A model generated the notes under the pieces. The model did no database searches, was not told the origin of the DNA, and saw only the letters and a program-made list of their open reading frames with translations. Positions 2,451-16,233 of a stretch of 64,000 nt of DNA are shown piece after piece. How positions within the stretch are numbered: the stretch's first letter is position 1; each line of letters starts with the position of its first letter. The position numbers and the translations under genes are program-made. The DNA comes from Pyrinomonadales bacterium (GTDB lineage Bacteria > Acidobacteriota > Blastocatellia > Pyrinomonadales > Pyrinomonadaceae): assembly GCA_038200505.1 (NCBI GenBank), contig JBBPXX010000005.1, forward strand, positions 11,201 through 75,200, written 5' to 3'.

Positions 2451-3062
2451 TTAACTGCCGATGCTACCGGATTCTGCCGTCATTAAACGCGAATTGTTGA
2501 CTTCGATTGGAAAAGTATCTCTAATTTTTTGAAAACCGCGCCGGATAAGAGATTTGACAGTGCCGAGCGGTAATCCGCATTCTTCGGCAATTTCGCTCTG
2601 CGACATTCCGCTGTAAATTGACATTTGGATAACCCGCCGTTGTTGTGGATTAAGCCGGTTTAGATGTTGGACGACTTCTTTGGCTTCTATGTAAATCTGC
2701 AATTTTTTGTCGGCTTCGCCGGAATGATTTTGTAAAATTTCTTCCGAGAAAAATGTTTGCGGCTGACGATTCGATTTTCGTAAACGATCAATTAAACGCC
2801 GACGTGCAATCAGCGAAATAAAATTTGCTTCACCGGATTTTTCCGCATCGAAACGTCCGGCATATTTCCAAATATCAATAAAAATATCCTGCACCGCATC
2901 TTCGGCATCTTCTCTCGAATTTAAGAAGTTTAAAGCTATTGACCAAACCAGTTTGCCGTATTTGTCCAAACATTCTTCAACTGCCATCTTATCTTCAACG
3001 GCGATTCTTTGAAGTATTGATGTGTTTGTATTTCGCTGCGTTTGAAAATCCGATGAACTCAT
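2451..3062 (-). CDS. ECF-type RNA polymerase sigma-70 family factor
   Basis: Region 2 (DIFIDIWKYAGRFD) and region 4 HTH (MSQSEIAEECGLPLGTVKSLIRRG) are present. I take the start at the ATG for MSSSDF (3062). The longer tracked ORF (to 3233) overlaps the upstream small gene. Confidence 0.85.
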   Translation of the reverse strand: MSSSDFQTQRNTNTSILQRIAVEDKMAVEECLDKYGKLVWSIALNFLNSREDAEDAVQDIFIDIWKYAGRFDAEKSGEANFISLIARRRLIDRLRKSNRQPQTFFSEEILQNHSGEADKKLQIYIEAKEVVQHLNRLNPQQRRVIQMSIYSGMSQSEIAEECGLPLGTVKSLIRRGFQKIRDTFPIEVNNSRLMTAESGSIGS

Positions 3063-3081
3063 TTTTCCTCTACAATTGCAT

Positions 3082-3306
3082 TTAATTTTTTGTTTCTTCG
3101 CGTCCGTGCGGCGTGTCCGCCGATTCAACGCCGCCGGCAACATCCCGATCATCAGGATTTCCCTTAGATTCATCGCCGCGCCGCATTTCCCTGACAATAT
3201 CGTCGGAAGGTTTGTTTGCTGATTCTTCGGCAATTTTCATCGCATCCCAATCTTGTCTTTCAACATCCGGGAATTGTTCCGGGTTTATTTTTGTTTCATC
3301 CTGCAT
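3082..3306 (-). CDS. small highly charged acidic protein, 74 aa, hypothetical
   Basis: The ORF lies between dps and the ECF sigma gene on the same strand. AGGTGA sits 5 nt before the ATG at 3306. The composition looks disordered and hydrophilin-like. Confidence 0.4.
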   Translation of the reverse strand: MQDETKINPEQFPDVERQDWDAMKIAEESANKPSDDIVREMRRGDESKGNPDDRDVAGGVESADTPHGREETKN

Positions 3307-3370: not shown

Positions 3371-3895
3371 TTAAGCAACTAAACCGCCGCGTTTTTCCAA
3401 AATATCCCGCAACCACCATTCGTGTTTTTCGTGAATCTGAACGAATGTCGTTAAAACGTCCGCCGTTCCGGGATCGTCATTATTATCAGCCGTTTTTATC
3501 GCTTGGCGCATTTCTTGAATGATTTGTATCGCGTTATTGTCTGCTTCTTTAATCATTTCGCGCATATCATTATTGTCGGCGGCTGATTTGATTGTGGCTG
3601 TTTTTTGAAATTCTTCGATGCGTGATACCGGATTTTGTCCGATCATTCTTACCCGTTCTGCCATCACATCAATCGTTCCATAGACTTCTTCGGCAAATTC
3701 GTCGAATAACAAATGTAAATCACGGAAAAGCGGTCCGAAGGTTTGCCAATGATAATGTTTGTAATTCAGATAGAGAATAAAAGCATTGGCGACTTGTTTT
3801 TGCAAAGACTGAACAATTGCGTCGTTCGGTTTATTGTGCGTTGGAATTTTTTCCTCGATTTTTGCTTTCGATTTTTCGGTAGCTGTTTCGGTCAT
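3371..3895 (-). CDS. dps: Dps family DNA-protection/ferritin-like protein
   Basis: Has the YHWQTFGPLFRDLHLLFDEFAEE ferroxidase-site region. Length is 174 aa. Confidence 0.9.
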   Translation of the reverse strand: MTETATEKSKAKIEEKIPTHNKPNDAIVQSLQKQVANAFILYLNYKHYHWQTFGPLFRDLHLLFDEFAEEVYGTIDVMAERVRMIGQNPVSRIEEFQKTATIKSAADNNDMREMIKEADNNAIQIIQEMRQAIKTADNNDDPGTADVLTTFVQIHEKHEWWLRDILEKRGGLVA

Positions 3896-4037
3896 CTGTG
3901 TTCCTTAAAGTTAATTTTTCTTTGTATATCTTCCTACCTTAATTCAAATACTATGCCATAAAAAATACAGTCTTTTATTTGAGTATTGGAATTGTAAAGT
4001 GGAGTTTATGTATCGAAATAAAACAGGTTTATGTATT

Positions 4038-4071
4038 AAAAAAAGGATGAACGATTCAGTTCATCCTTTTT
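4038..4071 (-). terminator. intrinsic terminator after the 778-aa gene
   Basis: Stem AAGGATGAAC/GTTCATCCTT with a 6-nt loop, flanked by A and T runs. Confidence 0.7.
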
Positions 4072-4086
4072 CTTGCTGTTAATCAG

Positions 4087-6423
4087 TTAATTACGATTGA
4101 CATTTGAAGGTGCGGTTGCCGTAATCGTGAACTCCGATCCTTGGTCTAATTCGACATCATCGCGTCCCTGTATAAGCACAGTTCCGGCTCCGGCTCCGGC
4201 TCCGACTGCCGCGCCGATTGCCGCGCCTGAACCGCCGCCGGCGATAGCACCGATCAACGCTCCTAACGCTGCGCCGATTCCGGCACGTTGGACGGTTTTC
4301 GTGGTTTGGTTATTATCACGAACAGAACCTTCATTATTGACCGTTACGTTTTCGCCGCTCGCTAATTTTACATTGTCAACGATTCCGGCAAACTTATATG
4401 TTTGACCGTTTCTCAAGCGAATCGTATCGAATTCCAGCGAAACATTAGCTCTGCCCGAAACTTGTCCCGAGCGTTCGGCTTTCGTAACACGACCTTCGAT
4501 AATTGCTCCGTTGTATTGCGACGGTGATGAAACTTCCATCGTAAATCTGTCGCCGTCCTGCGTTGCTTTTGTCGAAATTTTTGATCTCAACGTCGCCAAT
4601 ATCTGCGTATTATTGGGAATGACAAAATTACCGTTTTGATTTCCCGCTGTATTATCGTTACCTAAGTTGTAAAACTGTGCCGTGTCATTAGTTTTGTCAT
4701 AAACACTGGCAACCGTTATCGTGTCGTTTCTGTTTTCCAAATAAACGCGGCGGACGACTTTTAATTGTCCGTTGCTCAACGGAATAAAGTTGACATAAAA
4801 ATCATTTGCCCGGTCGCCTTCATAACTCAAAGCCACGCCGTCATAAGTCGTATTGGCAGTAACTTTGATAGTACGTCCGTTATTCGTCGTTTCAGTTCGC
4901 GCAACATTATCGGCGGTAAAAGTAATCTGCGGCGTAGAACTAGAACCGACTGTTACTTGTTTATCTCTCTTTTCTATCGCCAACGTATCGGGTGAAGACA
5001 AACGTCTTTCAAGATTTCTTTGAAGATTATCGTTGCGTTGATTTGCATTGTAATAACTGTTTGTCGCTCTGCCGACAACTTCACTGACATTATCACTTTG
5101 CGCCGCATTCAAACGATATGTTCCGGTCAACATCGTATCGAATCTGCTCATCGGCGTGTATTGACGATTATTAAAATCAAAATTTACGCTGTAATAATTG
5201 GATAAAGTGTTCAAATCGGTGCGGAGCAAGTTCCAATCGTTTTCAGCGTTTGAGGTAAAACGATAATCGCGCATAAATCCGTTAATAAAATATGCACGGT
5301 TCAGAACTTCTTCAACATCAGCCGAAGTCGAGCGTCGCGCATCAAAATTTTGTTTTAACGAATCAGTCGCCTTTTCAAAATCCGTAATGTAGCTGTAAAG
5401 TGTTTCTTCACTTCTCGTGTTGTCCAAGACGCTTTTGTCTAACGCGGTGTTCATATTGCGTTTATAAGCATCAGTACGCTGTTCGATGCGGCTTAAAATC
5501 GTGCGGACGTTATTTTCGTTTCCGCGAAAAGGAATTCCGCCGGTCGTCGTATTGTTATTTATTACCGGGGCAGTGTTCCAATTGTAGCTGACATTGTAAT
5601 AACCGGCTAAATTCTGCAAATCAGTCTTCAGACTTTGCCATTGACGTTCGGCATTAGGTGCTAAACGATTCTGACGCATAAAATTATCAATATAATAAGC
5701 CCGATTCAAAACTTCGGTAACGTCCGCAGTTGCTGATTGGCGATCATCAAATTTACGATTTAACGAATCTGTCGCATTTTCAAAATCCTTGACATAATTG
5801 TTAATCATATCTTCGCTATCCGAGCCGTTCAGACGGCTTCGGTCGAGAGCATTGTTCAACACGCGCTTATAATTATCGGTATTTGTTTCAATGCGTGTCA
5901 GAAGTGCATCAACAGTTCTATCGTTGACGCGGTATGGATTTACTGTCGCCGTATTGACGGTTGAAGGTTTTGTCCAATCTCCCCTGACTGAGTAATAACC
6001 TGCCAAAGTAGTTAAATTCGTGCGAATATTCGCCCAACTTCTCTGCGCGGTTACGTCCAGTCGGTTGGTTTTCATAAATTCGTTAATATACGCGGCACGA
6101 TTCAGAACATTTTCAACGTCGGCAGTAACTGAACTTTTCGCTTCAAATCTCTGCTTCAAAGTGTCGGTTGCGGTTTCAAAATCACTAACGTAATTCAAAA
6201 CCATATCTTCACTGTTCTTATTGTTTAATCGTCGGCTGTTATCCAATGCGCGATCTAAATCACGTTTATAAGCATCAGTTCCGGTTTCGATTCGATTTAA
6301 TAAGCTTTGAACATTTCTGTCGGAAACACGATACGGACGCTGTGCCTGAACGCTCATCGTCGCCGTCGTTAATCCGATTGCTAATAATGTAATTGTAAAT
6401 AAGTTTAATATTTTCCTTTTCAT
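4087..6423 (-). CDS. secreted 778-aa protein with three tandem ~130-aa repeats and a C-terminal glycine-zipper segment
   Basis: N-terminal signal peptide (LLAIGLTTATMSVQAQ). The repeat unit RV.DR.V..LL.RIE..TD.YKR...ALD...EDM...YV.DFE.ATD.L...F....S...DV..VLNRA.YI..FM is seen three times. The C-terminal part contains GIGAALGALIGAIAGGGSGAAIGAAVGAGAGAG. Confidence 0.75.
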   Translation of the reverse strand: MKRKILNLFTITLLAIGLTTATMSVQAQRPYRVSDRNVQSLLNRIETGTDAYKRDLDRALDNSRRLNNKNSEDMVLNYVSDFETATDTLKQRFEAKSSVTADVENVLNRAAYINEFMKTNRLDVTAQRSWANIRTNLTTLAGYYSVRGDWTKPSTVNTATVNPYRVNDRTVDALLTRIETNTDNYKRVLNNALDRSRLNGSDSEDMINNYVKDFENATDSLNRKFDDRQSATADVTEVLNRAYYIDNFMRQNRLAPNAERQWQSLKTDLQNLAGYYNVSYNWNTAPVINNNTTTGGIPFRGNENNVRTILSRIEQRTDAYKRNMNTALDKSVLDNTRSEETLYSYITDFEKATDSLKQNFDARRSTSADVEEVLNRAYFINGFMRDYRFTSNAENDWNLLRTDLNTLSNYYSVNFDFNNRQYTPMSRFDTMLTGTYRLNAAQSDNVSEVVGRATNSYYNANQRNDNLQRNLERRLSSPDTLAIEKRDKQVTVGSSSTPQITFTADNVARTETTNNGRTIKVTANTTYDGVALSYEGDRANDFYVNFIPLSNGQLKVVRRVYLENRNDTITVASVYDKTNDTAQFYNLGNDNTAGNQNGNFVIPNNTQILATLRSKISTKATQDGDRFTMEVSSPSQYNGAIIEGRVTKAERSGQVSGRANVSLEFDTIRLRNGQTYKFAGIVDNVKLASGENVTVNNEGSVRDNNQTTKTVQRAGIGAALGALIGAIAGGGSGAAIGAAVGAGAGAGTVLIQGRDDVELDQGSEFTITATAPSNVNRN
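5164..6342 (-). repeat. three tandem in-frame coding repeats (~390 nt each) inside the 778-aa gene
   Basis: Protein residues ~28-160, ~161-290 and ~291-420 align by eye along their full length. The copies are diverged at the DNA level. Confidence 0.7.
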
Positions 6424-6513: not shown

Positions 6514-6528
6514 GCAAGAATCGTGCCA
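6514..6528 (-). promoter_or_regulatory. sigma-54 (-24/-12) promoter for the 778-aa repeat-protein gene
   Basis: The minus strand reads TTGGCACGATTCTTGCC with GG-N10-GC spacing. It lies ~90 nt upstream of the ATG at 6423. Confidence 0.7.
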
Positions 6529-6638
6529 ATAGACTCAAAATTTTGTTTAACCACTGTATTTGCAATGGGTTAGTATAAAGACGACTTTGGCAGAGAAGAC
6601 GAATAAACATAATTCTGCAATAAAACGATACGCACGGC

Positions 6639-8459
6639 TTAGTCTTTTATATATGGAAGTTTAACTATGAAAGTAGAACCTTTTCCTATTCCTTCGCTCT
6701 CGGCTTCGATAGTTCCGTTATGAAGTTTGACGATATGATCGGAAATGGATAAGCCTAAACCTAATCCGCCGTGAATCCGTGTGCTTGTGCTGTCGTCTTG
6801 TCGAAATCTGTCAAAAATGTGCGGCAGAAAATCCGGTTTGATGCCTTTTCCGCTGTCTTTAACAATCAAATGAACAATGCCGTTATTTTCCAAAACCGAA
6901 GCCTCGATTTTTCCGCCGTTGTCCGTGAATTTGACGGCGTTGGAAAATAAATTGCGGATGACGATTTTTATTCTGTCCTCGTCGCCTAAAATTTTGTGTC
7001 CGTTGAGATTATCTTCTTTGACAAATTCAATACTTTTTTCGCGGACTTTTTCTTCAAACTGTTTGCAGGAATATTCAAAAACTTCGGAGAAAAGAAATTT
7101 CCTGCTTTCAATAATAATTCCTTCGGAGATAATTTGCGTATAATCCAGCAATTCTTCCACTAGCTGCGTTTGCAAACGCAAATTTTTATCAACTTTATCG
7201 AGAGCCAGATTTTTCGTACTTTTAGATAAACTGTCGATTTTTAAAATTTTCGTCCAACCGGCAATGGCGTTGAGAGGCGTTCTTAATTCGTGAGAAACAA
7301 CCGCAATAAACTCATCTTTTACTTTATTGGCTTGCTCTGCCGATTGGCGGGCTTTTTGTTCCTTCTCGAGCAGCAGTTGTTTTTGCTGCTCCAACTCATA
7401 TAATTCAGCAGCGACAGTCTGCATTTCAGCTCGCGCAGATGCTTCCCAGTAAGTTACTCCGAACATCAAAAAACTGAATACCATTCCGGCTAAAAAGATT
7501 AGCGGTGTCCAACCGACATTCGATTGAGCGGCAAATTCAGGCAGCGAATTATATTCAATCACCCAATTCCTGCCGGCGACATCAAGAGTTTCTTTATCCG
7601 TAAATGCTTTCTCGATTTGGTCTGTAAAATTTCCCGACTCCGGTTGTGCGGTTTGAGTCAAAAGATTTTCAGTAGTGATTTCTCCGTCATAGATTTTAAA
7701 CGCAATATCGCGGGTTAAAGTATTCGCCTGAATTTCGCTTAAAAAATCTCCCGCCCGAAACGGACTGTAAATGAAACCTGTTAAATTTTTTCTTCTTTCC
7801 TCAACGGACGACGGAGAACTGCCGGGCTTATAAATCGGCAAATAAATCAAAAATCCTATTTGCTTATTATTTTCCTCTTCCTGCATCAGAATTACCTTGG
7901 TACTGGCGGCGGCTTGTCCCGAATCGCGTGCGCGATAAATCGCTTCGCGCCGGTTTGCCTCGCTCGACATATCGAATCCGATAACTTTTTTATTACGCTC
8001 GTCGAGAGGTTCGATGTAAATAATCGCTTGATGAGAATCTTGTTCGATGTCGGGAAACGGCTTAAAATCGGGATAACCTTCCGCTTTCATTTTAGCCGTC
8101 AAAGCGTTGCGTTCACCCGGCAGAAAAACTTTGCTGAAACCGATTCCCTGAATGCCCGCATAATTTTCGTCCAAATCCAAATTATTTACATAGTTAGCAA
8201 AGGTTTTACGATTTAATATATCCGTAGATTCGATAAATCCGCGTCCGCCTTTGAGAAGGGCAATATACAGATTTATTTTATTTTCGATGGCGGATTGAAT
8301 TCGATTGACTTCATTGTTAAACCTTACGATATCTTTACTTTTAGCAGTGCGGTAAAAACTGTAAGTGATTCCGATAGTTACTAAAATAGAAACCGCCAAA
8401 ATCACCAAAGGCAATCTAACAGTACTTTTATTTTGAAGTATTTCCTTTAAACTCGACAC
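6639..8459 (-). CDS. sensor histidine kinase with periplasmic CHASE-like domain
   Basis: An N-terminal TM helix is followed by a CHASE-type extracytoplasmic region (IIYIEPLDERNKKVIGFDM, RARDSG) and a second TM. HisKA (VVSHELRTPLNAI) and HATPase (DSGKGI, GGLGLGLSI) follow. Confidence 0.85.
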   Translation of the reverse strand: MSSLKEILQNKSTVRLPLVILAVSILVTIGITYSFYRTAKSKDIVRFNNEVNRIQSAIENKINLYIALLKGGRGFIESTDILNRKTFANYVNNLDLDENYAGIQGIGFSKVFLPGERNALTAKMKAEGYPDFKPFPDIEQDSHQAIIYIEPLDERNKKVIGFDMSSEANRREAIYRARDSGQAAASTKVILMQEEENNKQIGFLIYLPIYKPGSSPSSVEERRKNLTGFIYSPFRAGDFLSEIQANTLTRDIAFKIYDGEITTENLLTQTAQPESGNFTDQIEKAFTDKETLDVAGRNWVIEYNSLPEFAAQSNVGWTPLIFLAGMVFSFLMFGVTYWEASARAEMQTVAAELYELEQQKQLLLEKEQKARQSAEQANKVKDEFIAVVSHELRTPLNAIAGWTKILKIDSLSKSTKNLALDKVDKNLRLQTQLVEELLDYTQIISEGIIIESRKFLFSEVFEYSCKQFEEKVREKSIEFVKEDNLNGHKILGDEDRIKIVIRNLFSNAVKFTDNGGKIEASVLENNGIVHLIVKDSGKGIKPDFLPHIFDRFRQDDSTSTRIHGGLGLGLSISDHIVKLHNGTIEAESEGIGKGSTFIVKLPYIKD

Positions 8460-8528
8460 AAGCTACATATTCATTGCTAAAATATTTAACAAAGAGCAAA
8501 TTTGTTTTTACTAAATATTAAACTAAAC

Positions 8529-8543
8529 GCAATACTTGTGCCG
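8529..8543 (-). promoter_or_regulatory. sigma-54 (-24/-12) promoter for the CHASE histidine kinase gene
   Basis: The minus strand reads ACGGCACAAGTATTGCG with GG-N10-GC spacing. It lies ~70 nt upstream of the ATG at 8459. Confidence 0.62.
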
Positions 8544-8736
8544 TTTAAGAACACGAAAATTTAATTATGGAAATGTTGTATTCAATAGAATAAAAAGGCG
8601 TTTTCTAAAATTTCGTATGAATAATTTACACACAATTTAGAGAACAACGTCTTGAATTGTTGCAAAATCCGAATTTTTGAATAATTCTTTACAAGCAAAT
8701 TTCTTAAAATACATTATTTTTAGAGGTATTTAGAAT

Positions 8737-8752
8737 TGGCATTGTTTTTGCA
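8737..8752 (+). promoter_or_regulatory. sigma-54 (-24/-12) promoter for the 49-aa membrane peptide gene
   Basis: The plus strand reads TTGGCATTGTTTTTGCA with GG-N10-GC spacing. It lies ~60 nt upstream of the ATG at 8811. Confidence 0.7.
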
Positions 8753-8810
8753 GTGTCATTTGAACTTGAGAAGTTTGCAACAAACTATTTTACTGGAGAT
8801 AAATTTCATT

Positions 8811-8960
8811 ATGTCGGAAGAAAATAACACCGGAAACAATCTTATTTGGGCAATCGCCACCATAATCATCGTAGCAATTATTGCGGGAGCATTATATTTT
8901 ACAGTTTTGCAAGGTAACAAAACACAGAACAAAACCATTAACGTCGAAATACCGAAATAA
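8811..8960 (+). CDS. 49-aa single-pass membrane peptide, hypothetical
   Basis: ATG at 8811 is preceded by GGAGA. One hydrophobic helix (LIWAIATIIIVAIIAGALYF). A sigma-54 promoter lies ~60 nt upstream and a strong terminator lies downstream. Confidence 0.6.
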   Translation: MSEENNTGNNLIWAIATIIIVAIIAGALYFTVLQGNKTQNKTINVEIPK

Positions 8961-8995
8961 AAGCCCCGTCTGTTACTTCAACCAAATAAAATTTT

Positions 8996-9023
8996 AGAGT
9001 GCGAATGTTTTCATTCGCACTCT
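8996..9023. terminator. bidirectional intrinsic terminator between convergent genes
   Basis: Perfect 12-bp stem AGAGTGCGAATG/CATTCGCACTCT with a TTTT loop, flanked by T/A runs on both sides. Confidence 0.78.
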
Positions 9024-9030
9024 AAAAAAG

Positions 9031-10560
9031 TTACAAATCGGCAATTTTTTCTTCGAGGTTATGCCGTTTTATCATCCCGTAAAGTCTTGGACGATATAAT
9101 CCTAAAAGATTCGCGGCGGCTTGTTTATTCCCGTTGGTGCGTTTTAACGCGGCTAAGACGACTCCGTTTTCAATCGAATTGAAGACATCTTTTTGATCTT
9201 CACCTTCCGTCGGTTCAGTTAGTTTTTCAACAATATATTTCCCGACTTCTTCAAACAATTCTTCACCTTCCAAATTATTTTGATACAGCAAACCGCTGCT
9301 GTTTTTTGCAATTCCGTTTTCTTCACCATTTGTCGGCAGACGGCTGTTTATCAGACTTTCTCTGTTGGCAATATCTTTGTATGAAATAGCACCTTCAAGA
9401 TTTTCGGGTATATTCAATTCGGTAATCGTCCCGTCCTTTGAAAGCAAAATCGCCCGCTCGATAACGTGCTGAAGTTCGCGCACGTTGCCGCGCCAATTAT
9501 AGTTGAGCATTTGGTTATAACTTCTTTCGGAAAACCGGAAATCTTCCTTTTTATATTTGTCGGCATAAATTTCCAAAAAATGTTCGGCAAGCATCGGCAC
9601 ATCGTCCATTCTCTCGCGCAGCGGCGGAATTTTTATTTCGATGGTGTTGATGCGGTAATATAAATCTTCTCTCAAACTATTGTCTTTGATAGCTTCAAAA
9701 GGACTGCGATTGGTCGAAGAAATCAGACGAAAATCAACTTCCTTGGGTTTGTCGCTGCCAACCGGATAATAAATTTTTTCCTGCAAAACCCGCAGCAGTT
9801 TCGGCTGCAAACTCATCGGCATTTCGCCGATTTCGTCCAACAAAAGACTTCCGCCGTTAGCGCGTCCGAGAAATCCTTCCTTATCGCTCGTCGCGCCCGT
9901 GAACGCGCCTTTTTTATGTCCGAAAAGTTCAGATTCGATCAATTCCTTCGGCAATGCCGAGCAATTTAATTTTACGAAAGGTTTTTTTGAGCGATGACTT
10001 TTGTAATGAATGGCGTTGGCGATCACTTCTTTGCCTGTTCCCGATTCGCCTAAAACAAGAATGTTTGCATCGGATTCGGCGACGCTTTCGATTATTTCAT
10101 AAATATTCTGCATCGAACGGCTTCCGCCGATCACGCCTTCATACGAAGTACGGCTCGAAAGTTTATCGCGCAGTTCTTTGATTTCAACTTTTTGTTTCTT
10201 TCGTTCGACGGCTTTTTCAACCAAAACCAACAATTCTTCAAATTCAACCGGCTTTTCCAAGAAATAAAACGCTCCGGCTTTGGTTGCTTCAACAGCTTTT
10301 TCAGTCGAACTAAAACCCGTAATCATAATGATTTCGGTTTCCGGCGACAATTCCTTACAACGGCGAACCATTTCGATACCGTCAAAATCGGGCATATTCA
10401 AATCGGTCAAGATAATATCGAAATCATTTTCCTCGACCAATTTTATTCCCTTTTCGCCGCGGTCAGCCGTCGTAACTTCAAAGCCTTCCGACTTTAGATT
10501 AAACTTCATCAAATCCAAAGTCGCCGCGTCGTCATCAATTACCAATGCTTTATTTGCCAT
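9031..10560 (-). CDS. sigma-54-dependent response regulator (NtrC family enhancer-binding protein)
   Basis: REC domain (DIILTDLNMPDFDG), AAA+ Walker A GESGTGKE, a GAFTGA loop and a C-terminal Fis-type HTH. ATG at 10560 has AGGAA 7 nt upstream. The tracked ORF extends to a TTG at 10584. Confidence 0.9.
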   Translation of the reverse strand: MANKALVIDDDAATLDLMKFNLKSEGFEVTTADRGEKGIKLVEENDFDIILTDLNMPDFDGIEMVRRCKELSPETEIIMITGFSSTEKAVEATKAGAFYFLEKPVEFEELLVLVEKAVERKKQKVEIKELRDKLSSRTSYEGVIGGSRSMQNIYEIIESVAESDANILVLGESGTGKEVIANAIHYKSHRSKKPFVKLNCSALPKELIESELFGHKKGAFTGATSDKEGFLGRANGGSLLLDEIGEMPMSLQPKLLRVLQEKIYYPVGSDKPKEVDFRLISSTNRSPFEAIKDNSLREDLYYRINTIEIKIPPLRERMDDVPMLAEHFLEIYADKYKKEDFRFSERSYNQMLNYNWRGNVRELQHVIERAILLSKDGTITELNIPENLEGAISYKDIANRESLINSRLPTNGEENGIAKNSSGLLYQNNLEGEELFEEVGKYIVEKLTEPTEGEDQKDVFNSIENGVVLAALKRTNGNKQAAANLLGLYRPRLYGMIKRHNLEEKIADL

Positions 10561-10751
10561 AGACAATTCCTGCTTTTTATCCAAAAACTAAATTTAAACT
10601 ATTAAAACGAATTATTATAAAAATAATTTGCCGTTGAATTATTTTCATTATTTAACAGCTAATAAAAAATTCTATTTTATTGTATCAAAAAAATTATTAA
10701 GTATAAGAATAAGTATAAGAATAAGGAAAAATGATTCGAACATTACACACG

Positions 10752-10783
10752 AAAAAAGAGGCAAGTCCCCTTGACTTACCTCT
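10752..10783 (-). terminator. intrinsic terminator of the orphan sigma-54 unit
   Basis: 11-bp stem AGAGGCAAGTC/GACTTACCTCT with 1 mismatch. On the minus strand it is followed by TTTTTT. Confidence 0.68.
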
Positions 10784-10997
10784 TAGTGTTTTCGCTCCCC
10801 AGTCTTTATAGACAAAACTATTTAATCTTTCGCCTATTTTTTTCTGCCGATTAGGAAACCGATTAACAAACCGAAAATACCCGCAATGGCAATACTCAAT
10901 TCCGGTTTATCTGTGATTGTTGCCGTAACTTATTGTCGTTTTTCGGCTTTGATTAGTTGAAAAAGCGAACTGTCATTTTGTTTCAAAGACCATTACC

Positions 10998-11012
10998 GCA
11001 AAGTTCGTGCCA
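10998..11012 (-). promoter_or_regulatory. sigma-54 (-24/-12) promoter of an orphan ~230-nt unit upstream of the activator gene
   Basis: The minus strand reads ATGGCACGAACTTTGCG with GG-N10-GC spacing. An intrinsic terminator follows at 10752..10783. Confidence 0.62.
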
Positions 11013-11223
11013 TCAACAATAAATGGATTAAATTTAACAATTTATGTAAAGTAATTTTCTAGGAGTTACGCAGTTAAAAATGAAAAAGTAAGAAAACATT
11101 CGGAATAACTGCTAGCTGGAAGATTATAGATGAGAGATTAAAACGATAGATTTATTATCTATCAGCTATAATTTATCATCTATTGCGAATAATTTTCCGT
11201 TTGAACTGCGTAACTTCTAAAAA

Positions 11224-11296
11224 GTTTTGAGTTCAAACTTTAGTTTGTCCGCCGCGCTTCGCCGACGGAAAGCACGCTAAAGCGTGAACTCAAAAC
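11224..11296. repeat. 73-nt GC-rich structured element closed by a 12-bp stem
   Basis: GTTTTGAGTTCA at 11224..11235 pairs with TGAACTCAAAAC at 11285..11296. Two small internal hairpins are possible. Confidence 0.5.
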
Positions 11297-11387
11297 ATTA
11301 AAAAACTTATTTTACGGTGTGTTTAATATTATTTCGCAATGATTTAATACATAATAAGTTGCAGAAATTCTTTATCAATAATTTTCT

Positions 11388-11807
11388 ATGCCCGAAATCG
11401 TTAATAACCAACGCAAAATCAAAATCAATAATGAAATCTTTCAAGCATTTACTGAAAGTGCGGGAGAAAAAATCAGCGAAACCAAAGACAAGGATTTTAC
11501 AATAGCGTTTATATCGGATAAAAAGATGCGCGAATTAAATTTTAATTTTCGTAGCAAAAACTCGACGACGGATGTATTATCTTTTCCTTTTGAAACCGAC
11601 GAATTTGAAGATGATAATCTCGGCGACATTGCAATTTCGCTCGAACAAGCTGCAAGACAGGCAATCGAAAATAATCTTGATTTTGAAACGGAAATAAAGC
11701 AGCTTATTCTGCACGGTATTCTGCATTTATGCGGTTACGACCACGAAACCGACGACGGCGAAATGAATAAACGCGAACTCAAACTTCGTGATAAACTCGG
11801 AATTTAA
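11388..11807 (+). CDS. ybeY: rRNA maturation endoribonuclease YbeY
   Basis: Has the HGILHLCGYDHE zinc-binding motif. Length is 139 aa. Confidence 0.9.
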   Translation: MPEIVNNQRKIKINNEIFQAFTESAGEKISETKDKDFTIAFISDKKMRELNFNFRSKNSTTDVLSFPFETDEFEDDNLGDIAISLEQAARQAIENNLDFETEIKQLILHGILHLCGYDHETDDGEMNKRELKLRDKLGI

Positions 11808-11810
11808 ATT

Positions 11811-12269
11811 ATGGCGGCAAAATTTGATTATTCGCTCGATTATAAAAATTTGGATTTGAGAAAACACCCTGAACTTTACTGCATCGGGAAAGGCGAACAG
11901 GGAGTTTTACTTGTAGAGCCGTATAAAAGTGAAGTTCTTAGGCATTGGAGATTTAAAACGCCGGAAATCGCCGAAGAATCGAGCGCGAAAATTTACGAAC
12001 TTTTTCTCGAATACAAAGAGCAAAAAGATTTTGTCGGAATGGATATGGCGCGAAAGTTTTTGCAGATGGGAATTACGCGGGCGCGGCGTTATGCCAATCA
12101 TAAATCCGGGCGCAAGTATAAAAAAGGCACGAAGGAAATTTTGCCGATTGAAGAAGACAAAGTAAAAGCCGAATCCGCGAAAATCTTTTCGGAGAAATAT
12201 TATCTTGCCAAAAATGATGAAGTTTATCAGGCGTTGATGAAGGAACATAAGGAAAAATATGAAGAATAA
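11811..12269 (+). CDS. DUF4385-like protein
   Basis: The block HPELYCIGKGEQGVLLVEPYKSE..HWRFKTPEIA...ARKFLQMG.TRARRYANHKSG matches my recollection of the DUF4385 family. Confidence 0.65.
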   Translation: MAAKFDYSLDYKNLDLRKHPELYCIGKGEQGVLLVEPYKSEVLRHWRFKTPEIAEESSAKIYELFLEYKEQKDFVGMDMARKFLQMGITRARRYANHKSGRKYKKGTKEILPIEEDKVKAESAKIFSEKYYLAKNDEVYQALMKEHKEKYEE

Positions 12270-12277
12270 TCAAAAAT

Positions 12278-12829
12278 ATGGCAATTGAAATCGAGAAAAA
12301 ATTCACATTATCAAACGATCAGCGCGAACAGATTTTGGCAAGTTTAAAAGAATTCGGCGCGGAATATATCAGAGAAGATTTTGAAGAAAACATACTTTAC
12401 CAAGGCAGTATTTTGATGGAAAAAGGCGCGGTTTTGCGCGTTCGTAAAATTGGCGATAAAACGATTTTGACTTATAAAGAACCCGTTCAAAATTCATTGG
12501 CGCACAAACAGCGAATCGAATATGAAACGGAAGTCGAAAATGCCGACGAACTTGAAAAAATTATTGAAAATCTCGGTTTCACAAAAGCGTTGGTTTATGA
12601 AAAACGCCGAAAAATCTGGCATTTCCGAAGTGTGGAAATCGTTTTGGATGAATTGCCATTTGGAATTTATATGGAAATCGAAGGTTCGATAACAGCGATT
12701 GCCGAAGCGGAAATGTTTCTCGACGGCGAAAATCTGGAAGAAGAAAATCAAACTTATCCGCGCCTGACGGAAAGGTTCGGTGTGCGAAAAGAACACTTGA
12801 TTGAAGCGAGATTTTCAAAAAGTTCTTGA
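12278..12829 (+). CDS. CYTH domain protein (triphosphate tunnel metalloenzyme / class IV adenylate cyclase-like)
   Basis: Has the N-terminal IEIEKKF (ExExK) signature. Length is 183 aa. Confidence 0.75.
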   Translation: MAIEIEKKFTLSNDQREQILASLKEFGAEYIREDFEENILYQGSILMEKGAVLRVRKIGDKTILTYKEPVQNSLAHKQRIEYETEVENADELEKIIENLGFTKALVYEKRRKIWHFRSVEIVLDELPFGIYMEIEGSITAIAEAEMFLDGENLEEENQTYPRLTERFGVRKEHLIEARFSKSS

Positions 12830-12893
12830 TTTTATGCAAGTGTTTGAGTTATGCTCGTTCTATAAGAAATTTTCAAAAGGGAGAAAAACAGCA

Positions 12894-13469
12894 ATGAACA
12901 AACATGTCGTCGGGTTTATACTTTTTAATTTAATTGTCGGAACAAGCATAATTATCGCGGCTTTCTTTTATCAAATACCGAAATTTGAAAGCGTCGTTGT
13001 TACGCCTGTAACATCTGAAACTTATACGCGAAGCTGCTGGAAAGGTAATAAAAGATACGCTAACAAAATGACTTCGGTAAAAATTACACAGGCAGTTTTT
13101 GATAGTAAAACAGAAGAATTGAAGTTAGAATTATTTGTTCAATCAGATGTAAAATCATTTAAGAATATCAAAGTATCATTTAAGAATATTAAAGTAGCTC
13201 TGCATTTCTTCGTGAAAGACGGCGATTCAACTCGCTATTTGGCAACTGAAAAATTAACAGATGAAAAAATGGATAAGGTCAATATTGATCTTTCCGAAGG
13301 CGCAAAAATCACTTTTTTGATAACATCTTCATATGACTGGCTTGGCAATCTTAACTCACGCGAGAATTTGTATGTTATTCCTGAACTTACTTCAAATGCA
13401 AATACTTATGGAGATTACACGCCTGTTTTTGACGAAGCAAATGCAACGCCTGTAACGCTTGCCCGATAA
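12894..13469 (+). CDS. membrane-anchored hypothetical protein, 191 aa
   Basis: ATG at 12894 follows AAGGGAGAA. N-terminal TM helix. Contains an internal SFKNIKV duplication. Confidence 0.55.
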   Translation: MNKHVVGFILFNLIVGTSIIIAAFFYQIPKFESVVVTPVTSETYTRSCWKGNKRYANKMTSVKITQAVFDSKTEELKLELFVQSDVKSFKNIKVSFKNIKVALHFFVKDGDSTRYLATEKLTDEKMDKVNIDLSEGAKITFLITSSYDWLGNLNSRENLYVIPELTSNANTYGDYTPVFDEANATPVTLAR

Positions 13470-13496
13470 ATATTTTCAGGTAAAAAACAATTTATA

Positions 13497-13523
13497 AAAG
13501 CTGCTCGTCGAGCGGCTTTTTTT
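13497..13523 (+). terminator. intrinsic terminator after the 12894..13469 gene
   Basis: AAAGCTGCT-CGTCG-AGCGGCTTT followed by a T run. Confidence 0.6.
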
Positions 13524-13686
13524 CTTTGCAAGTTATTTTTCGATATAATTTTCAGAGATTTGCGCTATAGAAAATGCGATTTTCGGAAATGTATTTGATT
13601 TAGCCGAAAGTTCTTTAGGAATTGATTTGAAAAACTGCCGACGTGGTTTTTTAAATCTTTTCGGCAAAGCGCGGCAACTGAAGTAA

Positions 13687-13737
13687 TTCAAAGTTTAAGG
13701 TTCACAGTTTTAAGGCAAACTGACTTTGAACTTTGAA
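13687..13737. repeat. word-repeat hairpin (TTCAAAG/CTTTGAA words) 3' of the hybrid kinase gene
   Basis: TTCAAAGTTTAAGGTTCACAGT faces ACTGACTTTGAACTTTGAA. The stem is imperfect. Confidence 0.55.
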
Positions 13738-13743
13738 CTTCCG

Positions 13744-15693: not shown

Positions 15694-15802
15694 TTTTTTC
15701 TCCATCTGCATACAAAAATTTTATTATAAAAAATTATACTTAATTTAATGTTTGACTGCATTCATAAAATTTTGATTAAGTGTGTCTTGAAAAGTTTAAA
15801 TC

Positions 15803-15844
15803 AAAAAAACCTCGACCTCCGACTTATTCGGAAGGCGAGGTTTT
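15803..15844 (-). terminator. intrinsic terminator after the lmo0937-family gene
   Basis: Stem CCTCGACCTCCGA/TCGGAAGGCGAGG (11 of 13 bp) with A7 on one side and T4 on the other. Confidence 0.6.
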
Positions 15845-15907: not shown

Positions 15908-16054
15908 TTACACGACTTTTCTACCTGAAACCAATCTGATTACTAAAACTACAAGCGCGATGACTAGAAGTATATGAATAAGTACTCCGCCGAAACTGAA
16001 GACAAAGCCTAACAACCACAAAACTACCAAAATAACAATAATCGTTTCCAACAT
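15908..16054 (-). CDS. lmo0937-family small membrane protein, 48 aa
   Basis: Not in the ORF track because it is under 60 aa. Translation is MLETIIVILVVLWLLGFVFSFGGVLIHILLVIALVVLVIRLVSGRKVV. AAGGAGAA lies 6-7 nt upstream and a terminator hairpin lies downstream. Confidence 0.6.
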   Translation of the reverse strand: MLETIIVILVVLWLLGFVFSFGGVLIHILLVIALVVLVIRLVSGRKVV

Positions 16055-16233
16055 AATCTTTTCTCCTTATTCTTCCCTCAATTTTTGAAACTTATGCTTC
16101 TAAGCACTATAACTTTTGTAACTTCAATTTTTGTGCCAAACATACTAAGTTGAAGTAAGTGAAGAGTTTAAGTTTAAAGTAAGTTTGCCGGATTTATGTT
16201 AAATTTTTATGTAGTATTAAAACGATACAAAAA

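What the first reader, a model, noticed from the sequence alone, without database searches (positions are those of the whole stretch)
6514..11012. Four near-consensus sigma-54 promoters clustered around an NtrC-type activator and a CHASE kinase
Seen directly: four sites with exact GG-N10-GC spacing and close fit to TGGCAC-N5-TTGC, each in an intergenic region at a sensible distance from a downstream gene.
- TTGGCACGATTCTTGCC (minus strand, 6514..6528) precedes the 778-aa repeat protein.
- ACGGCACAAGTATTGCG (minus strand, 8529..8543) precedes the CHASE kinase.
- TTGGCATTGTTTTTGCA (plus strand, 8737..8752) precedes a 49-aa membrane peptide.
- ATGGCACGAACTTTGCG (minus strand, 10998..11012) precedes a unit with no ATG ORF.
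The gene in the middle (9031..10560) has REC, an AAA+ domain with GAFTGA, and a Fis HTH. That is the obligatory activator class for sigma-54.
Inference: this is a compact, probably self-contained two-component/sigma-54 regulon. Every product is membrane- or envelope-associated (glycine-zipper protein, two tiny hydrophobic peptides, the sensor itself). I found no other equally good sites in the remaining ~55 kb by eye, apart from two weaker TTGA variants.
Basis: partly seen in the sequence, partly recalled or inferred. Interest (0 to 1): 0.72.

Follow-up and report, generated by a model that had tools for sequence, protein, structure and literature searches.

The report
Conserved sigma-54 stress regulon in Acidobacteria
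A soil acidobacterium carries a membrane sensor kinase and a sigma-54 activator surrounded by six activator-type promoters for small membrane and stress-protection proteins; dozens of related genomes keep the same layout, so the promoters are real, but this is a new example of a well-known kind of genetic switch.

Summary
They are real sigma-54 promoters: each recurs at the same position and orientation in about 40-60 related Pyrinomonadaceae (Acidobacteriota) loci, while the spacer bases vary.

The REC/AAA+(GAFTGA)/Fis-HTH activator and the CHASE histidine kinase are confirmed.

- **Shared activator site.** Every promoter has a 17-bp palindrome, (T/A)GTAT-N7-ATAC(A/T) or ...TTGCA, about 70-105 bp upstream.
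- **Not self-contained.** The two "TTGA variants" are regulon promoters with the same palindrome. One (3944-3958) drives dps. The other (16124-16138) drives a 48-aa DUF5670/lmo0937-family membrane protein. Their non-canonical -12 base is conserved: 1 of 42 orthologous sites has GC, against 116 of 116 in the other classes.
- **The "unit with no ATG ORF".** It is the 31-codon remnant of a DUF883/ElaB-like tail-anchored protein gene that is intact in relatives. It is followed by a conserved RNA hairpin element found only upstream of the activator gene.
- **RNA element.** At least four lineages lost the ORF but kept promoter and RNA. This suggests a sigma-54-driven small RNA or attenuator.

rpoN could not be checked. 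Verdict: a solid, undescribed member of a known kind.

The parts
3371..3895 (-). dps (ferritin-like DNA-protection protein), sixth regulon output
   Evidence: Pfam Ferritin E=8e-33. It lies downstream of the glycine-zipper gene in 14 loci.
3944..3958 (-). P_dps: sigma-54-type promoter with non-canonical -12 (TGGCATAGTATTTGA)
   Evidence: It is conserved in 12 of 14 loci, always with GA or GT at -12. It lies 49 nt before the ATG.
4009..4025 (.). Upstream activator palindrome for P_dps (TGTATCGAAATAAAACA), 67 nt upstream of the promoter
   Evidence: PWM score 14.0 bits. Equivalent sites occur in several related loci.
4034..4073 (-). Intrinsic terminator of the glycine-zipper gene
   Evidence: Fold -18.5 kcal/mol, z = -7.4.
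4087..6423 (-). 778-aa secreted repeat protein with C-terminal glycine zipper (GZ)
   Evidence: Pfam Gly-zipper_YMGG. More than 850 homologues, all Acidobacteriota. The AF2 model shows a signal peptide, three four-helix bundles, beta domains and a glycine zipper.
6514..6528 (-). P_GZ: canonical sigma-54 promoter TGGCACGATTCTTGC
   Evidence: Conserved in 62 of 79 loci, all with GC at -12.
6616..6632 (.). Upstream activator palindrome for P_GZ (CGTATCGTTTTATTGCA on the - strand), 104 nt upstream
   Evidence: A PWM not trained on these sites hits 41 of 65 GZ promoters, 24 of them in one 5-nt bin at -105.
6639..8459 (-). CHASE-domain sensor histidine kinase
   Evidence: Pfam CHASE E=2e-57, HisKA and HATPase_c. 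Hydrophobic segments flank the CHASE domain.
8529..8543 (-). P_HK: sigma-54 promoter CGGCACAAGTATTGC (kinase autoregulation)
   Evidence: A site scoring >=9 lies 60-166 nt upstream of the kinase in 37 of 43 loci.
8614..8630 (.). Upstream activator palindrome about 87 nt upstream of P_HK (TGTAAATTATTCATACG on the - strand)
   Evidence: It is a conserved block in the alignment of 27 divergent promoter regions.
8648..8664 (.). Second palindrome-like site (CGTCTTGAATTGTTGCA), 89 nt upstream of P_P49
   Evidence: PWM score 9.8 bits. It is the conserved block TTGCAAYRATTYAAGAC.
8737..8751 (+). P_P49: sigma-54 promoter TGGCATTGTTTTTGC, divergent from P_HK
   Evidence: Present in 40 of 43 loci with score >=9. 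The spacing between the divergent promoters is about 190-220 bp and conserved.
8811..8960 (+). 49-aa single-pass membrane protein (P49), no family assignment
   Evidence: Intact 49-60-aa orthologues in 43 loci share MSEENNTGNNLIWAITTLIIVAIIAGALYY. No Pfam or NCBIfam hit.
8992..9027 (.). Bidirectional terminator between the convergent P49 and activator genes
   Evidence: 16-bp stem.
9031..10560 (-). NtrC-type sigma-54 activator (REC, AAA+ with GAFTGA, Fis-type HTH)
   Evidence: Pfam Sigma54_activat E=9e-68, Response_reg, HTH_8. GAFTGA at 9909. Below every NCBIfam equivalog cut-off.
10746..10811 (-). Conserved RNA element: GGGGAG motif plus a 12-bp hairpin with an AAGGGG loop and a U-run (terminator)
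   Evidence: The covariance model hits once per locus, always upstream of the activator: 23 loci at E<1e-3 and none elsewhere in 1.4 Mb. Six of 12 pairs covary and 97% of cells pair. Fold z = -4.5.
10834..10929 (-). Remnant (31 codons plus stop) of a DUF883/ElaB-like C-tail-anchored protein gene
   Evidence: Translation VTATITDKPELSIAIAGIFGLLIGFLIGRKK*. Full 125-174-aa ORFs sit at this position in 11 or more loci. DUF883_C E=6.5e-4 for the remnant and 25 bits (cut-off 27) for the full protein.
10998..11012 (-). P_S4: canonical sigma-54 promoter TGGCACGAACTTTGC, same strand as the activator gene and 438-452 nt upstream of it
   Evidence: Equivalent sites 170-855 nt upstream of the activator gene in 27 or more loci.
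11053..11309 (.). Two palindromic insertions separating P_S4 from its upstream palindrome
   Evidence: Inverted repeats 11053-11086/11193-11226 and 11211-11243/11277-11309. Relatives have the palindrome at -91; here it is at -339.
11335..11351 (.). Displaced upstream activator palindrome of P_S4 (TGTATTAAATCATTGCG on the - strand)
   Evidence: PWM score 19.1 bits, the second best hit in the 64 kb.
15803..15844 (-). Terminator of the DUF5670 gene
   Evidence: Fold -23.1 kcal/mol, z = -5.3.
15908..16054 (-). 48-aa DUF5670/lmo0937-family membrane protein
   Evidence: Pfam DUF5670 56.7 bits (cut-off 23.5). NCBIfam lmo0937_fam_TM 54.9 bits (cut-off 30).
16124..16138 (-). P_DUF5670: sigma-54-type promoter with non-canonical -12 (TGGCACAAAAATTGA)
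   Evidence: Conserved upstream of the gene in 30 of 34 loci, with GC at -12 in only 1 of 30.
16213..16229 (.). Upstream activator palindrome of P_DUF5670 (AGTATTAAAACGATACA), exactly 91 nt upstream
   Evidence: PWM score 21.7 bits, the best hit in the window. Equivalent sites in nearly all loci.

Best explanation
This is a conserved sigma-54 regulon of Pyrinomonadaceae (Acidobacteriota, Blastocatellia), run by a two-component system.

**Proposed mechanism**
1. The CHASE-domain histidine kinase (6639-8459) senses an unknown extracytoplasmic signal (inferred).
2. It phosphorylates the NtrC-type REC/AAA+/HTH activator (9031-10560) (inferred).
3. The activator binds 17-bp palindromes, (T/A)GTAT-N7-ATAC(A/T) or ...TTGCA, about 70-105 bp upstream of each promoter. 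The sites are shown; the binding is inferred.
4. Using ATP hydrolysis and the GAFTGA loop, it opens sigma-54 holoenzyme closed complexes at six promoters in this window.

**The six promoters**
- Four are canonical, with TTGC at -12: the 778-aa secreted glycine-zipper protein, the kinase itself (positive feedback), a conserved 49-aa membrane protein, and 'site 4'.
- Two carry a conserved non-canonical -12 (TTGA/T/G): dps and a 48-aa DUF5670/lmo0937-type membrane protein.

**Site 4**
- Ancestrally it drove a DUF883/ElaB-like tail-anchored protein gene.
- That gene is followed by a conserved RNA hairpin element just upstream of the activator gene.
- In this genome the ORF is deleted down to 31 codons, but the promoter and the RNA element are kept.
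- The unit now most likely makes a roughly 230-nt non-coding RNA, and/or feeds read-through into the activator gene.

**Physiological role (inferred)**
- The outputs are families that other bacteria place in their general or stationary-phase stress regulons: Dps, ElaB/YqjD-like, lmo0937-like, and glycine-zipper proteins.
- The likely role is therefore envelope and cell protection under a stress such as starvation or desiccation.
For: **Shown by tools**
- Exact sites.
- All six sites are intergenic and correctly oriented, each followed by a ribosome-binding site and ORF or by the RNA element, and then by a strong terminator.
- The order activator / P49 (opposite strand) / kinase / GZ (/ dps) holds in about 45 loci, down to roughly 50% protein identity.
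- Promoters of each class are conserved in place while spacer bases vary.
- The palindrome sits at a fixed offset: -91 for site 4 and DUF5670, and -105 for GZ in 41 of 65 loci using a PWM trained only on site-4 sites. Background is 0.12 hits per kb.
- The window's PWM hits of 11.7 bits or more include five of the six regulon sites. The sixth, 8648-8664, scores 9.8, and only three hits above the 9-bit cut-off lie outside the regulon.
- The activator has REC, a Sigma54_activat domain with GAFTGA, and HTH_8.
- The kinase has CHASE, HisKA and HATPase_c domains.
- DUF5670 and Dps are assigned above the curated cut-offs.

**From the literature**
- Sigma-54 and its activators co-occur almost perfectly in genomes (PMC3162934).
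- All three Acidobacteria genomes surveyed had RpoN (PMC3372290, Table 1).
- lmo0937 is strongly sigma-B dependent (PMC2813243).
- ElaB is controlled by RpoS and OxyR (PMC6389858).
Against: - No rpoN gene lies in the window or in any fetched locus, so the sigma factor is inferred.
- There are no transcript data.
- Assigning the palindrome to this particular activator rests only on adjacency and conserved synteny. Acidobacteria may encode many such activators.
- The kinase promoter is the weakest (CGGCA...). The palindromes in the divergent region are degenerate: only 9 of about 40 reach 12 bits.
- At site 4 in this genome the palindrome has been pushed to -339 by insertions and the ORF is destroyed, so this one unit may be decaying.
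- The DUF883 assignment is just below Pfam's cut-off (25 against 27 bits; only 2 of 11 members hit at E<=0.01).
- The structure model of GZ gave no functional match (best Foldseek E about 3e-3 to FABP-like barrels).
- The stress role is an analogy to other phyla, not a test.
Confidence: 0.75

Rival explanations
1. The sites are chance matches to a short consensus in AT-rich intergenic DNA and have no promoter function.
For: The total number of hits with at most 1 mismatch in the window (6) is not significantly above shuffles (3.08 expected; 11 of 100 shuffles reach 6).
Against: - Positional conservation of every site class in tens of orthologous loci, with variable spacers.
- A shared upstream palindrome at fixed offsets.
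- All sites are intergenic and correctly oriented.
Confidence: 0.02
2. The promoters are real sigma-54 promoters, but the activator that binds the GTAT-N7-ATAC palindrome is not the adjacent NtrC-type protein. Alternatively, different promoters use different activators, and the adjacent pair only autoregulates.
For: - No direct evidence links the palindrome to this protein.
- The activator matches no characterised equivalog.
- In some loci (L011, L021-L025, L035) the GZ gene keeps its promoter without the kinase and activator nearby.
- The window holds a second, hybrid PAS kinase (13744-15711) between two regulon units.
Against: - The activator, kinase, P49 and GZ genes and their promoters travel together in about 45 loci.
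- The palindromes flank the activator and kinase genes themselves.
- Only one GAFTGA protein is encoded in the 64 kb.
Confidence: 0.12
3. Site 4 in this genome is a decaying relic. After the DUF883-like ORF was deleted and insertions displaced the palindrome, the promoter persists only because too little time has passed.
For: - The ORF is reduced to 31 codons with no good start.
- 257 bp of palindromic insertions separate promoter and palindrome.
- The closest relatives (L001, L004) show further erosion of the ORF.
Against: - The promoter core is a perfect consensus, identical in L004.
- The RNA element scores 68 bits and is intact.
- At least four separate lineages lost the ORF yet kept both promoter and RNA element.
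- Enhancer-type activators can act over several hundred bp (established knowledge).
Confidence: 0.25
4. The site-4 unit is a sigma-54-dependent small RNA, originally the 3' UTR of the DUF883-like mRNA, or a regulated attenuator in front of the activator gene. It is kept for its RNA rather than for any peptide.
For: - The element occurs once per locus, only upstream of the activator gene.
- The hairpin is supported by compensatory changes.
- The conserved single-stranded GGGGAG and the AAGGGG loop go beyond what a terminator needs.
- In L027, L034, L043, L046 and L048 the promoter sits only 110-132 nt from the element's end, giving an RNA of about 85-100 nt with no ORF.
- ORF-less forms arose in at least four clades.
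Against: - No Rfam match.
- No target or protein partner was identified.
- In most genomes the element is simply the terminator region of a protein-coding gene.
- Sequence conservation could reflect constraints on the activator's own promoter region.
Confidence: 0.4

Closest known systems
ZraSR-ZraP of E. coli/Salmonella (sigma-54-dependent envelope-stress two-component system)
   Same: - A membrane sensor kinase and an NtrC-family REC/AAA+/HTH regulator.
- Divergent sigma-54 promoters sharing an intergenic activator-binding region.
- One arm drives the kinase (autoregulation) and the other a small envelope protein.

The comparison rests on established knowledge of ZraSR. Here the divergent pair P_HK/P_P49 has about 193 bp between the promoters and two palindromes.
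   Different: - The sensor has a CHASE domain instead of the ZraS periplasmic domain.
- The kinase and regulator genes are separate units rather than one operon.
- There are six promoters rather than two.
- The outputs are unrelated to ZraP.
- The activator scores far below the ZraR equivalog cut-off (351 against 760 bits).
NtrB-NtrC / the general NtrC class of bacterial enhancer-binding proteins
   Same: - Domain order REC / AAA+ (GAFTGA, Walker A GESGTGKE, Walker B LLLDEIGE) / Fis-type HTH.
- -24/-12 promoters.
- Palindromic upstream sites about 100 bp from the promoter.
   Different: - Not an NtrC orthologue (400 against 559 bits).
- No nitrogen-assimilation genes among the targets.
- The palindrome is TGT-N11-ACA-like (GTAT-N7-ATAC), not the NtrC site.
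GlrKR (QseEF)-glmY and LuxO-Qrr: sigma-54-dependent small RNAs encoded next to the two-component genes that control them
   Same: A sigma-54 promoter with an upstream activator site drives a short terminated RNA immediately beside the activator gene. In ORF-less relatives the RNA is about 85-100 nt.
   Different: - No sequence or Rfam similarity.
- Here the RNA is ancestrally the 3' end of a protein-coding mRNA.
- RNA function is unproven.
General stress regulons (sigma-S of E. coli, sigma-B of Listeria/Bacillus)
   Same: The output families overlap:
- Dps
- ElaB/YqjD/YgaM-type tail-anchored proteins (RpoS- and OxyR-controlled, PMC6389858; ribosome-inactivating, bioRxiv 10.1101/2024.08.16.608256)
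- lmo0937-family peptide (sigma-B dependent, PMC2813243)
- glycine-zipper envelope proteins
   Different: - Control is by sigma-54 plus an enhancer-binding response regulator, not by an alternative sigma-70-family factor.
- Only six units are known.
- The stress link is by analogy.

Membership tests
sigma-54 (-24/-12) promoter | GG and GC dinucleotides exactly 10 nt apart within a TGGCAC-N5-TTGC-like context | tested here: met
   Met for 6514-6528, 8529-8543, 8737-8751 and 10998-11012. Not met at -12 for 3944-3958 and 16124-16138, which have TTGA. Those two are filed as variant sigma-54-type promoters.
sigma-54 (-24/-12) promoter | Intergenic position upstream of, and oriented toward, a gene | tested here: met
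   All six lie in DNA free of ORFs of 100 aa or more. They are 49-105 nt before a start codon, or before the RNA element.
sigma-54 (-24/-12) promoter | Conservation of the element in orthologous upstream regions | tested here: met
   With the -12 C not scored, sites were found in GZ 62 of 79, P49 37 of 43, HK 17 of 43 (37 of 43 at the laxer score), dps 12 of 14 and DUF5670 30 of 34 loci.
sigma-54 (-24/-12) promoter | rpoN present in the same genome | not testable with these tools
Presence is inferred from sigma-54/activator co-occurrence (PMC3162934) and from RpoN in 3 of 3 surveyed Acidobacteria (PMC3372290).
sigma-54 (-24/-12) promoter | Transcription start about 12 nt downstream of the -12 element, dependent on activator and sigma-54 | not testable with these tools
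   Requires 5'-end mapping and mutants.
NtrC-type bacterial enhancer-binding protein (response-regulator class) | REC domain with phospho-acceptor Asp; AAA+ sigma-54 interaction domain with GAFTGA and Walker A/B; C-terminal Fis-type HTH | tested here: met
   Pfam Response_reg 2e-29, Sigma54_activat 9e-68, AAA_lid_14 and HTH_8. GAFTGA. DD, D(ILTDLNMP), GESGTGKE and LLLDEIGE are seen in the translation.
NtrC-type bacterial enhancer-binding protein (response-regulator class) | Orthology to a named regulator (NtrC, AtoC, ZraR, GlrR, LuxO...) | tested here: not met
   All NCBIfam equivalog scores are far below the cut-offs, for example AtoC 405 against 714 and NtrC 400 against 559.
CHASE-domain sensor histidine kinase | Extracytoplasmic CHASE domain between two transmembrane segments, followed by HisKA and HATPase_c | tested here: met
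   CHASE residues 83-265 (E=2e-57), HisKA 381-444, HATPase_c 492-603. Hydrophobic stretches at about 15-36 and 325-347 in the translation.
DUF883 / ElaB-YqjD-YgaM C-tail-anchored proteins | N-terminal helical DUF883 domain and C-terminal glycine-zipper membrane anchor ending in basic residues | tested here: inconclusive
   - Full-length orthologue from L003: DUF883_C 25.0 bits (cut-off 27) and DUF883 16.7 bits (cut-off 25.4).
- ElaB NCBIfam E=1.8e-4, far below its cut-off.
- Only 2 of 11 members hit DUF883_C at E<=0.01.
- The architecture (no signal peptide, helical apolipoprotein-like body...GxFGLLIGLLIGRKK tail) fits.
DUF5670 / lmo0937 family membrane protein | Profile match above the curated cut-off over the full 43-residue model | tested here: met
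   Pfam 56.7 bits (cut-off 23.5). NCBIfam 54.9 bits (cut-off 30), positions 1-43 of 43.
Known RNA families (Rfam 15) | Covariance-model match at the gathering score | tested here: not met
   No hit in the window at gathering thresholds. Only chance-level hits appear in 10500-11400 at E<=10.

The most novel reading that the evidence does not exclude
In Blastocatellia, which lack the sigma-S and sigma-B systems known from other phyla, a CHASE-kinase/NtrC-type pair with sigma-54 may act as master switch of a general protection programme. The known outputs are Dps, a ribosome-silencing ElaB-like anchor protein, small membrane peptides and a large glycine-zipper envelope protein.

The programme would use two deliberately different promoter classes: canonical -12 TTGC, and a conserved TTGA/T/G. 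It would also include a sigma-54-dependent small RNA beside the activator gene. That RNA has been kept through at least four independent losses of the ORF it once followed.
Probability: 0.3. Interest if true: 0.6.

Novelty: new member of a known kind. Interest (0 to 1): 0.42.

Why it matters
- **First defined regulon for the group.** Pyrinomonadaceae are abundant, mostly uncultured soil and dry-land Acidobacteria, and almost nothing is known about their gene regulation. Two full-text searches for sigma-54 in this family and phylum found no such description. This cluster gives a complete, testable regulon from sequence alone: sensor, activator, binding site, six promoters and their products.
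- **A natural experiment on the -12 element.** Within one regulon, two promoter classes have kept different -12 bases across dozens of species.
- **A candidate sigma-54-dependent small RNA.**
- **A handle on unknown proteins.** Two very conserved proteins of unknown function are tied to the switch: the 778-aa glycine-zipper protein, with more than 850 homologues, and the 49-aa peptide, which is absent from the public protein collection.

The mechanism itself (two-component system plus sigma-54) is textbook, so the general significance is moderate.

Tried and rejected
- **rpoN.** An RpoN-box search of the six-frame translations of the window and all 80 loci found nothing, so rpoN could not be confirmed.
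- **Source contig.** Exact look-ups of the activator and GZ proteins for the source contig were not on record. The cluster look-up gave no names.
- **Rfam.** Nothing at gathering thresholds. Only chance-level microRNA and snoRNA hits in 10500-11400 at E<=10.
- **GZ structure.** The AF2 model (pLDDT 74.7) gave only weak FABP-like barrel matches in the PDB (best E 2.6e-3) and no functional assignment.
- **ElaB-like protein.** A PDB profile search returned only apolipoprotein-like low-complexity matches.
- **P49.** No Pfam or NCBIfam family.
- **IHF site.** I first read the conserved block TTGCAAYRATTYAAGAC as a possible IHF site. I rejected that in favour of a second activator palindrome, because it matches the PWM and sits 89 nt from P_P49.
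- **Short TTG ORF.** I considered that the site-4 remnant encodes a 21-aa peptide from a TTG start (MSIAIAGIFGLLIGFLIGRKK). I rejected this as the primary reading because relatives show it is the tail of a longer ORF and L001 has lost it entirely.
- **Hit at 32949(+).** It lies inside a 305-aa ORF and has no palindrome nearby, so I treated it as chance.

Full report
**1.

The four sequences are present at the stated coordinates and strands. Two match TGGCAC-N5-TTGC perfectly (6514-6528-, 10998-11012-). Two have one mismatch (8529-8543-, 8737-8751+).

The raw count in the window is not remarkable: 6 hits with at most 1 mismatch against 3.1 expected, and 11 of 100 shuffles reach 6. The arrangement is remarkable:
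- Four of the six hits lie within 4.5 kb (simulated P = 0.016).
- All four fall in the 11.6% of the window free of ORFs of 100 aa or more, each pointing at a downstream unit.
- The one remaining GC-type hit (32949+) lies inside a 305-aa ORF.

The central gene is a REC / Sigma54_activat / AAA-lid / HTH_8 protein with GAFTGA. The kinase has CHASE, HisKA and HATPase_c domains.

**2. Organism and synteny**

The 778-aa glycine-zipper (GZ) protein has more than 850 homologues. All are unnamed or 'hypothetical', from Pyrinomonadaceae and other Acidobacteriota.

Eighty genome loci holding a GZ homologue were fetched. About 45 keep the order activator / 49-aa gene (opposite strand) / CHASE kinase / GZ, often followed by dps and an ECF sigma factor. 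This holds down to roughly 50% GZ identity.

**3. The promoters are conserved**

In the 80 loci, hits of the same motif pile up at four fixed places:

| Position | Distance | Loci |
|---|---|---|
| Before GZ | about 65-129 nt before the ATG | 62 of 79 |
| Before the kinase | 60-166 nt | 37 of 43 at score >=9 |
| Before the 49-aa gene | mostly 59-88 nt | 40 of 43 |
| Before the activator gene, same strand | 170-855 nt | most syntenic loci |

Background is 0.19 sites per kb per strand at score >=9, so about 0.06 is expected per 300-nt region. The invariant positions are the -24 and -12 elements; the spacers differ. The kinase and 49-aa promoters form a back-to-back pair about 190-220 bp apart in nearly all loci. 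I regard promoter function as established as far as sequence comparison can go.

**4. A shared activator site**

Upstream of the site-4 promoters, relatives carry a 17-bp palindrome TGTAT-N7-AT(A/T)(A/G)C(A/G) starting exactly 91±3 nt before the promoter. A second copy, AGTAT-N7-ATACA, lies about 160-180 nt upstream.

A weight matrix built only from those sites gave these results:
- It hits 41 of 65 GZ promoters, 24 of them in a single 5-nt bin at -105. Background is 0.12 per kb.
- In the window it picks out 16213-16229 (21.7 bits), 11335-11351 (19.1), 4009-4025 (14.0), 6616-6632 (11.7) and 8648-8664 (9.8).
- Only three hits above the 9-bit cut-off lie outside the regulon.
- 8614-8630 was found with the pattern search.
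- Both sites in the divergent region are conserved blocks in a 27-locus alignment.

Every promoter therefore has a palindrome 67-105 nt upstream. The exception is site 4 in this genome, where it lies 339 nt away. That the neighbouring activator is the binding protein is an inference from adjacency and co-inheritance.

**5. Two further promoters, with a conserved odd -12**

TGGCAY-N5-TTGD occurs exactly twice in the 64 kb.
- 3944-3958(-) lies 49 nt before dps, with a palindrome 67 nt upstream.
- 16124-16138(-) lies 70-84 nt before a 48-aa ORF, with a good ribosome-binding site, a terminator and a palindrome exactly 91 nt upstream. The ORF is a DUF5670/lmo0937-family protein, above the curated cut-offs.

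Both promoters are conserved: dps in 12 of 14 loci and DUF5670 in 30 of 34. Scoring sites without the -12 C gives a clean split:

| Promoter class | GC at -12 |
|---|---|
| GZ | 62 of 62 |
| P49 | 37 of 37 |
| Kinase | 17 of 17 |
| dps | 0 of 12 (GA 9, GT 3) |
| DUF5670 | 1 of 30 (GA 20, GT 6, GG 3) |

The regulon therefore has two promoter classes, and it is not confined to 6.5-11 kb.

**6. What site 4 is**

In at least 11 relatives the site-4 promoter drives a 125-174-aa protein. The protein has no signal peptide, an apolipoprotein-like helical body and a tail ...KPELSIAIAGIFGLLIGLLIGRKK. It matches DUF883_C at 25 bits (cut-off 27) and ElaB weakly. It is ElaB/YqjD-like in architecture, but membership is unproven.

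In the window only the last 31 codons survive (10837-10929, stop at 10834-10836). L004 is similarly truncated, and L001 has lost the ORF altogether. This explains the 'unit with no ATG ORF'.

In most relatives the DUF5670 gene and this gene are a divergent pair sharing two palindromes. Here, and in L001, about 4.8 kb (ybeY, DUF4385, CYTH, a 222-aa ORF and a PAS hybrid kinase; 11388-15711) lies between them. In addition, two palindromic insertions (11053-11309) push the remaining palindrome away from the promoter.

**7. A conserved RNA element**

Between that ORF and the activator gene lies a conserved 65-70-nt block. It has a single-stranded CGGGGAG(C)GTGAAC, then a 12-bp hairpin with an AAGGGG loop and a U-run.
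- A covariance model finds it once per locus, always at this position: 23 loci at E<1e-3, and no credible hit elsewhere in 1.4 Mb.
- Six of 12 pairs show compensatory changes and 97% of cells pair, beyond all shuffled and slid controls.
- There is no Rfam match.
- ORF-less loci keep both the promoter and the element. In L027, L034, L043, L046 and L048 they are only 110-132 nt apart.
- On a tree of the activator proteins, these ORF-less forms fall in at least four separate clades.

This argues for selection on the RNA, or on the promoter-terminator arrangement in front of the activator gene. Candidate roles are a sigma-54-dependent small RNA or an attenuator allowing inducible read-through. Neither is shown.

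**8. The products**

- **GZ.** Signal peptide, three four-helix-bundle repeats (35-144, 168-275, 303-410), beta-rich domains (434-700), a poorly modelled glycine zipper (698-748) and a short C-terminal beta unit. The best PDB matches are weak FABP-like barrels.
- **P49.** A strongly conserved single-pass peptide with no family. This exact sequence is absent from the public protein collection.
- **Stress links.** Dps, ElaB-like and lmo0937-like proteins belong to stationary-phase or general stress regulons elsewhere (PMC6389858; PMC2813243; bioRxiv 10.1101/2024.08.16.608256). I therefore propose an envelope and cell protection programme, by analogy only.
- **Envelope theme.** This agrees with the 'bacterial exterior' theme proposed for sigma-54 (PMC3162934).

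**9. Comparison and verdict**

The closest analogue in architecture is ZraSR-ZraP: divergent sigma-54 promoters, kinase autoregulation and a small envelope protein. GlrKR-glmY and LuxO-Qrr are analogues for an RNA beside the activator gene. The activator is not an orthologue of any named regulator.

Two full-text searches found nothing on sigma-54 in Pyrinomonadaceae or on sigma-54 regulons in Acidobacteria.

This is a new, well-defined member of a known kind. Its two unusual features, the -12 split and the retained RNA element, deserve experiments. rpoN remains unverified.

Noticed in passing
window 10746-10811 (-); L018:5708-5778, L045:5863-5933 and 20 other loci: Conserved RNA element (GGGGAG motif plus a covarying 12-bp hairpin with an AAGGGG loop and a U-run), found only just upstream of the activator gene. 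It is kept, together with its sigma-54 promoter, in at least four lineages that lost the intervening ORF.
   Followed up: partly
window 3944-3958 and 16124-16138; orthologous sites in L002-L079: Two regulon promoters have a conserved non-canonical -12 element (TTGA/TTGT/TTGG; GC in 1 of 42 sites). The other four classes always have TTGC (116 of 116).
   Followed up: yes
window 11053-11309: Two adjacent, partly overlapping palindromic elements (34-nt and 33-nt arms) are inserted between the site-4 promoter and its activator palindrome. No other copy of the tested arm sequence occurs in the window.
   Followed up: partly
window 11388-15711: A block of about 4.8 kb (ybeY, DUF4385, CYTH, a 222-aa ORF and a PAS/HisKA/REC hybrid kinase) splits what is a divergent DUF5670/DUF883-like promoter pair in most relatives. 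L001 also has ybeY next to site 4.
   Followed up: partly
L002:2025-2092: The P49 promoter-like site TGGCATCATTTTTGCT occurs three times in tandem at 26-bp intervals in this relative.
   Followed up: no
window 8811-8960: The 49-aa gene is highly conserved in 43 loci, but this exact protein is not in the 15-billion-protein collection. It was probably never called in the public annotation.
   Followed up: partly
window 2451-3233 (-): An ECF-type sigma-70 factor gene follows dps here and in about 20 related loci. No sigma-54 site was looked for upstream of it.
   Followed up: no
(P0094, P0027, P0037; L021-L034): The GZ family varies in repeat number. Forms of about 640 aa appear to have two four-helix-bundle repeats, and a 926-aa form has four, against three here.
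   Followed up: no
L011, L021-L025, L035: Some genomes keep the GZ gene with its sigma-54 promoter but have no CHASE kinase or activator within the flanks that were fetched. The activator can therefore act from a distant gene, or another activator is used there.
   Followed up: no
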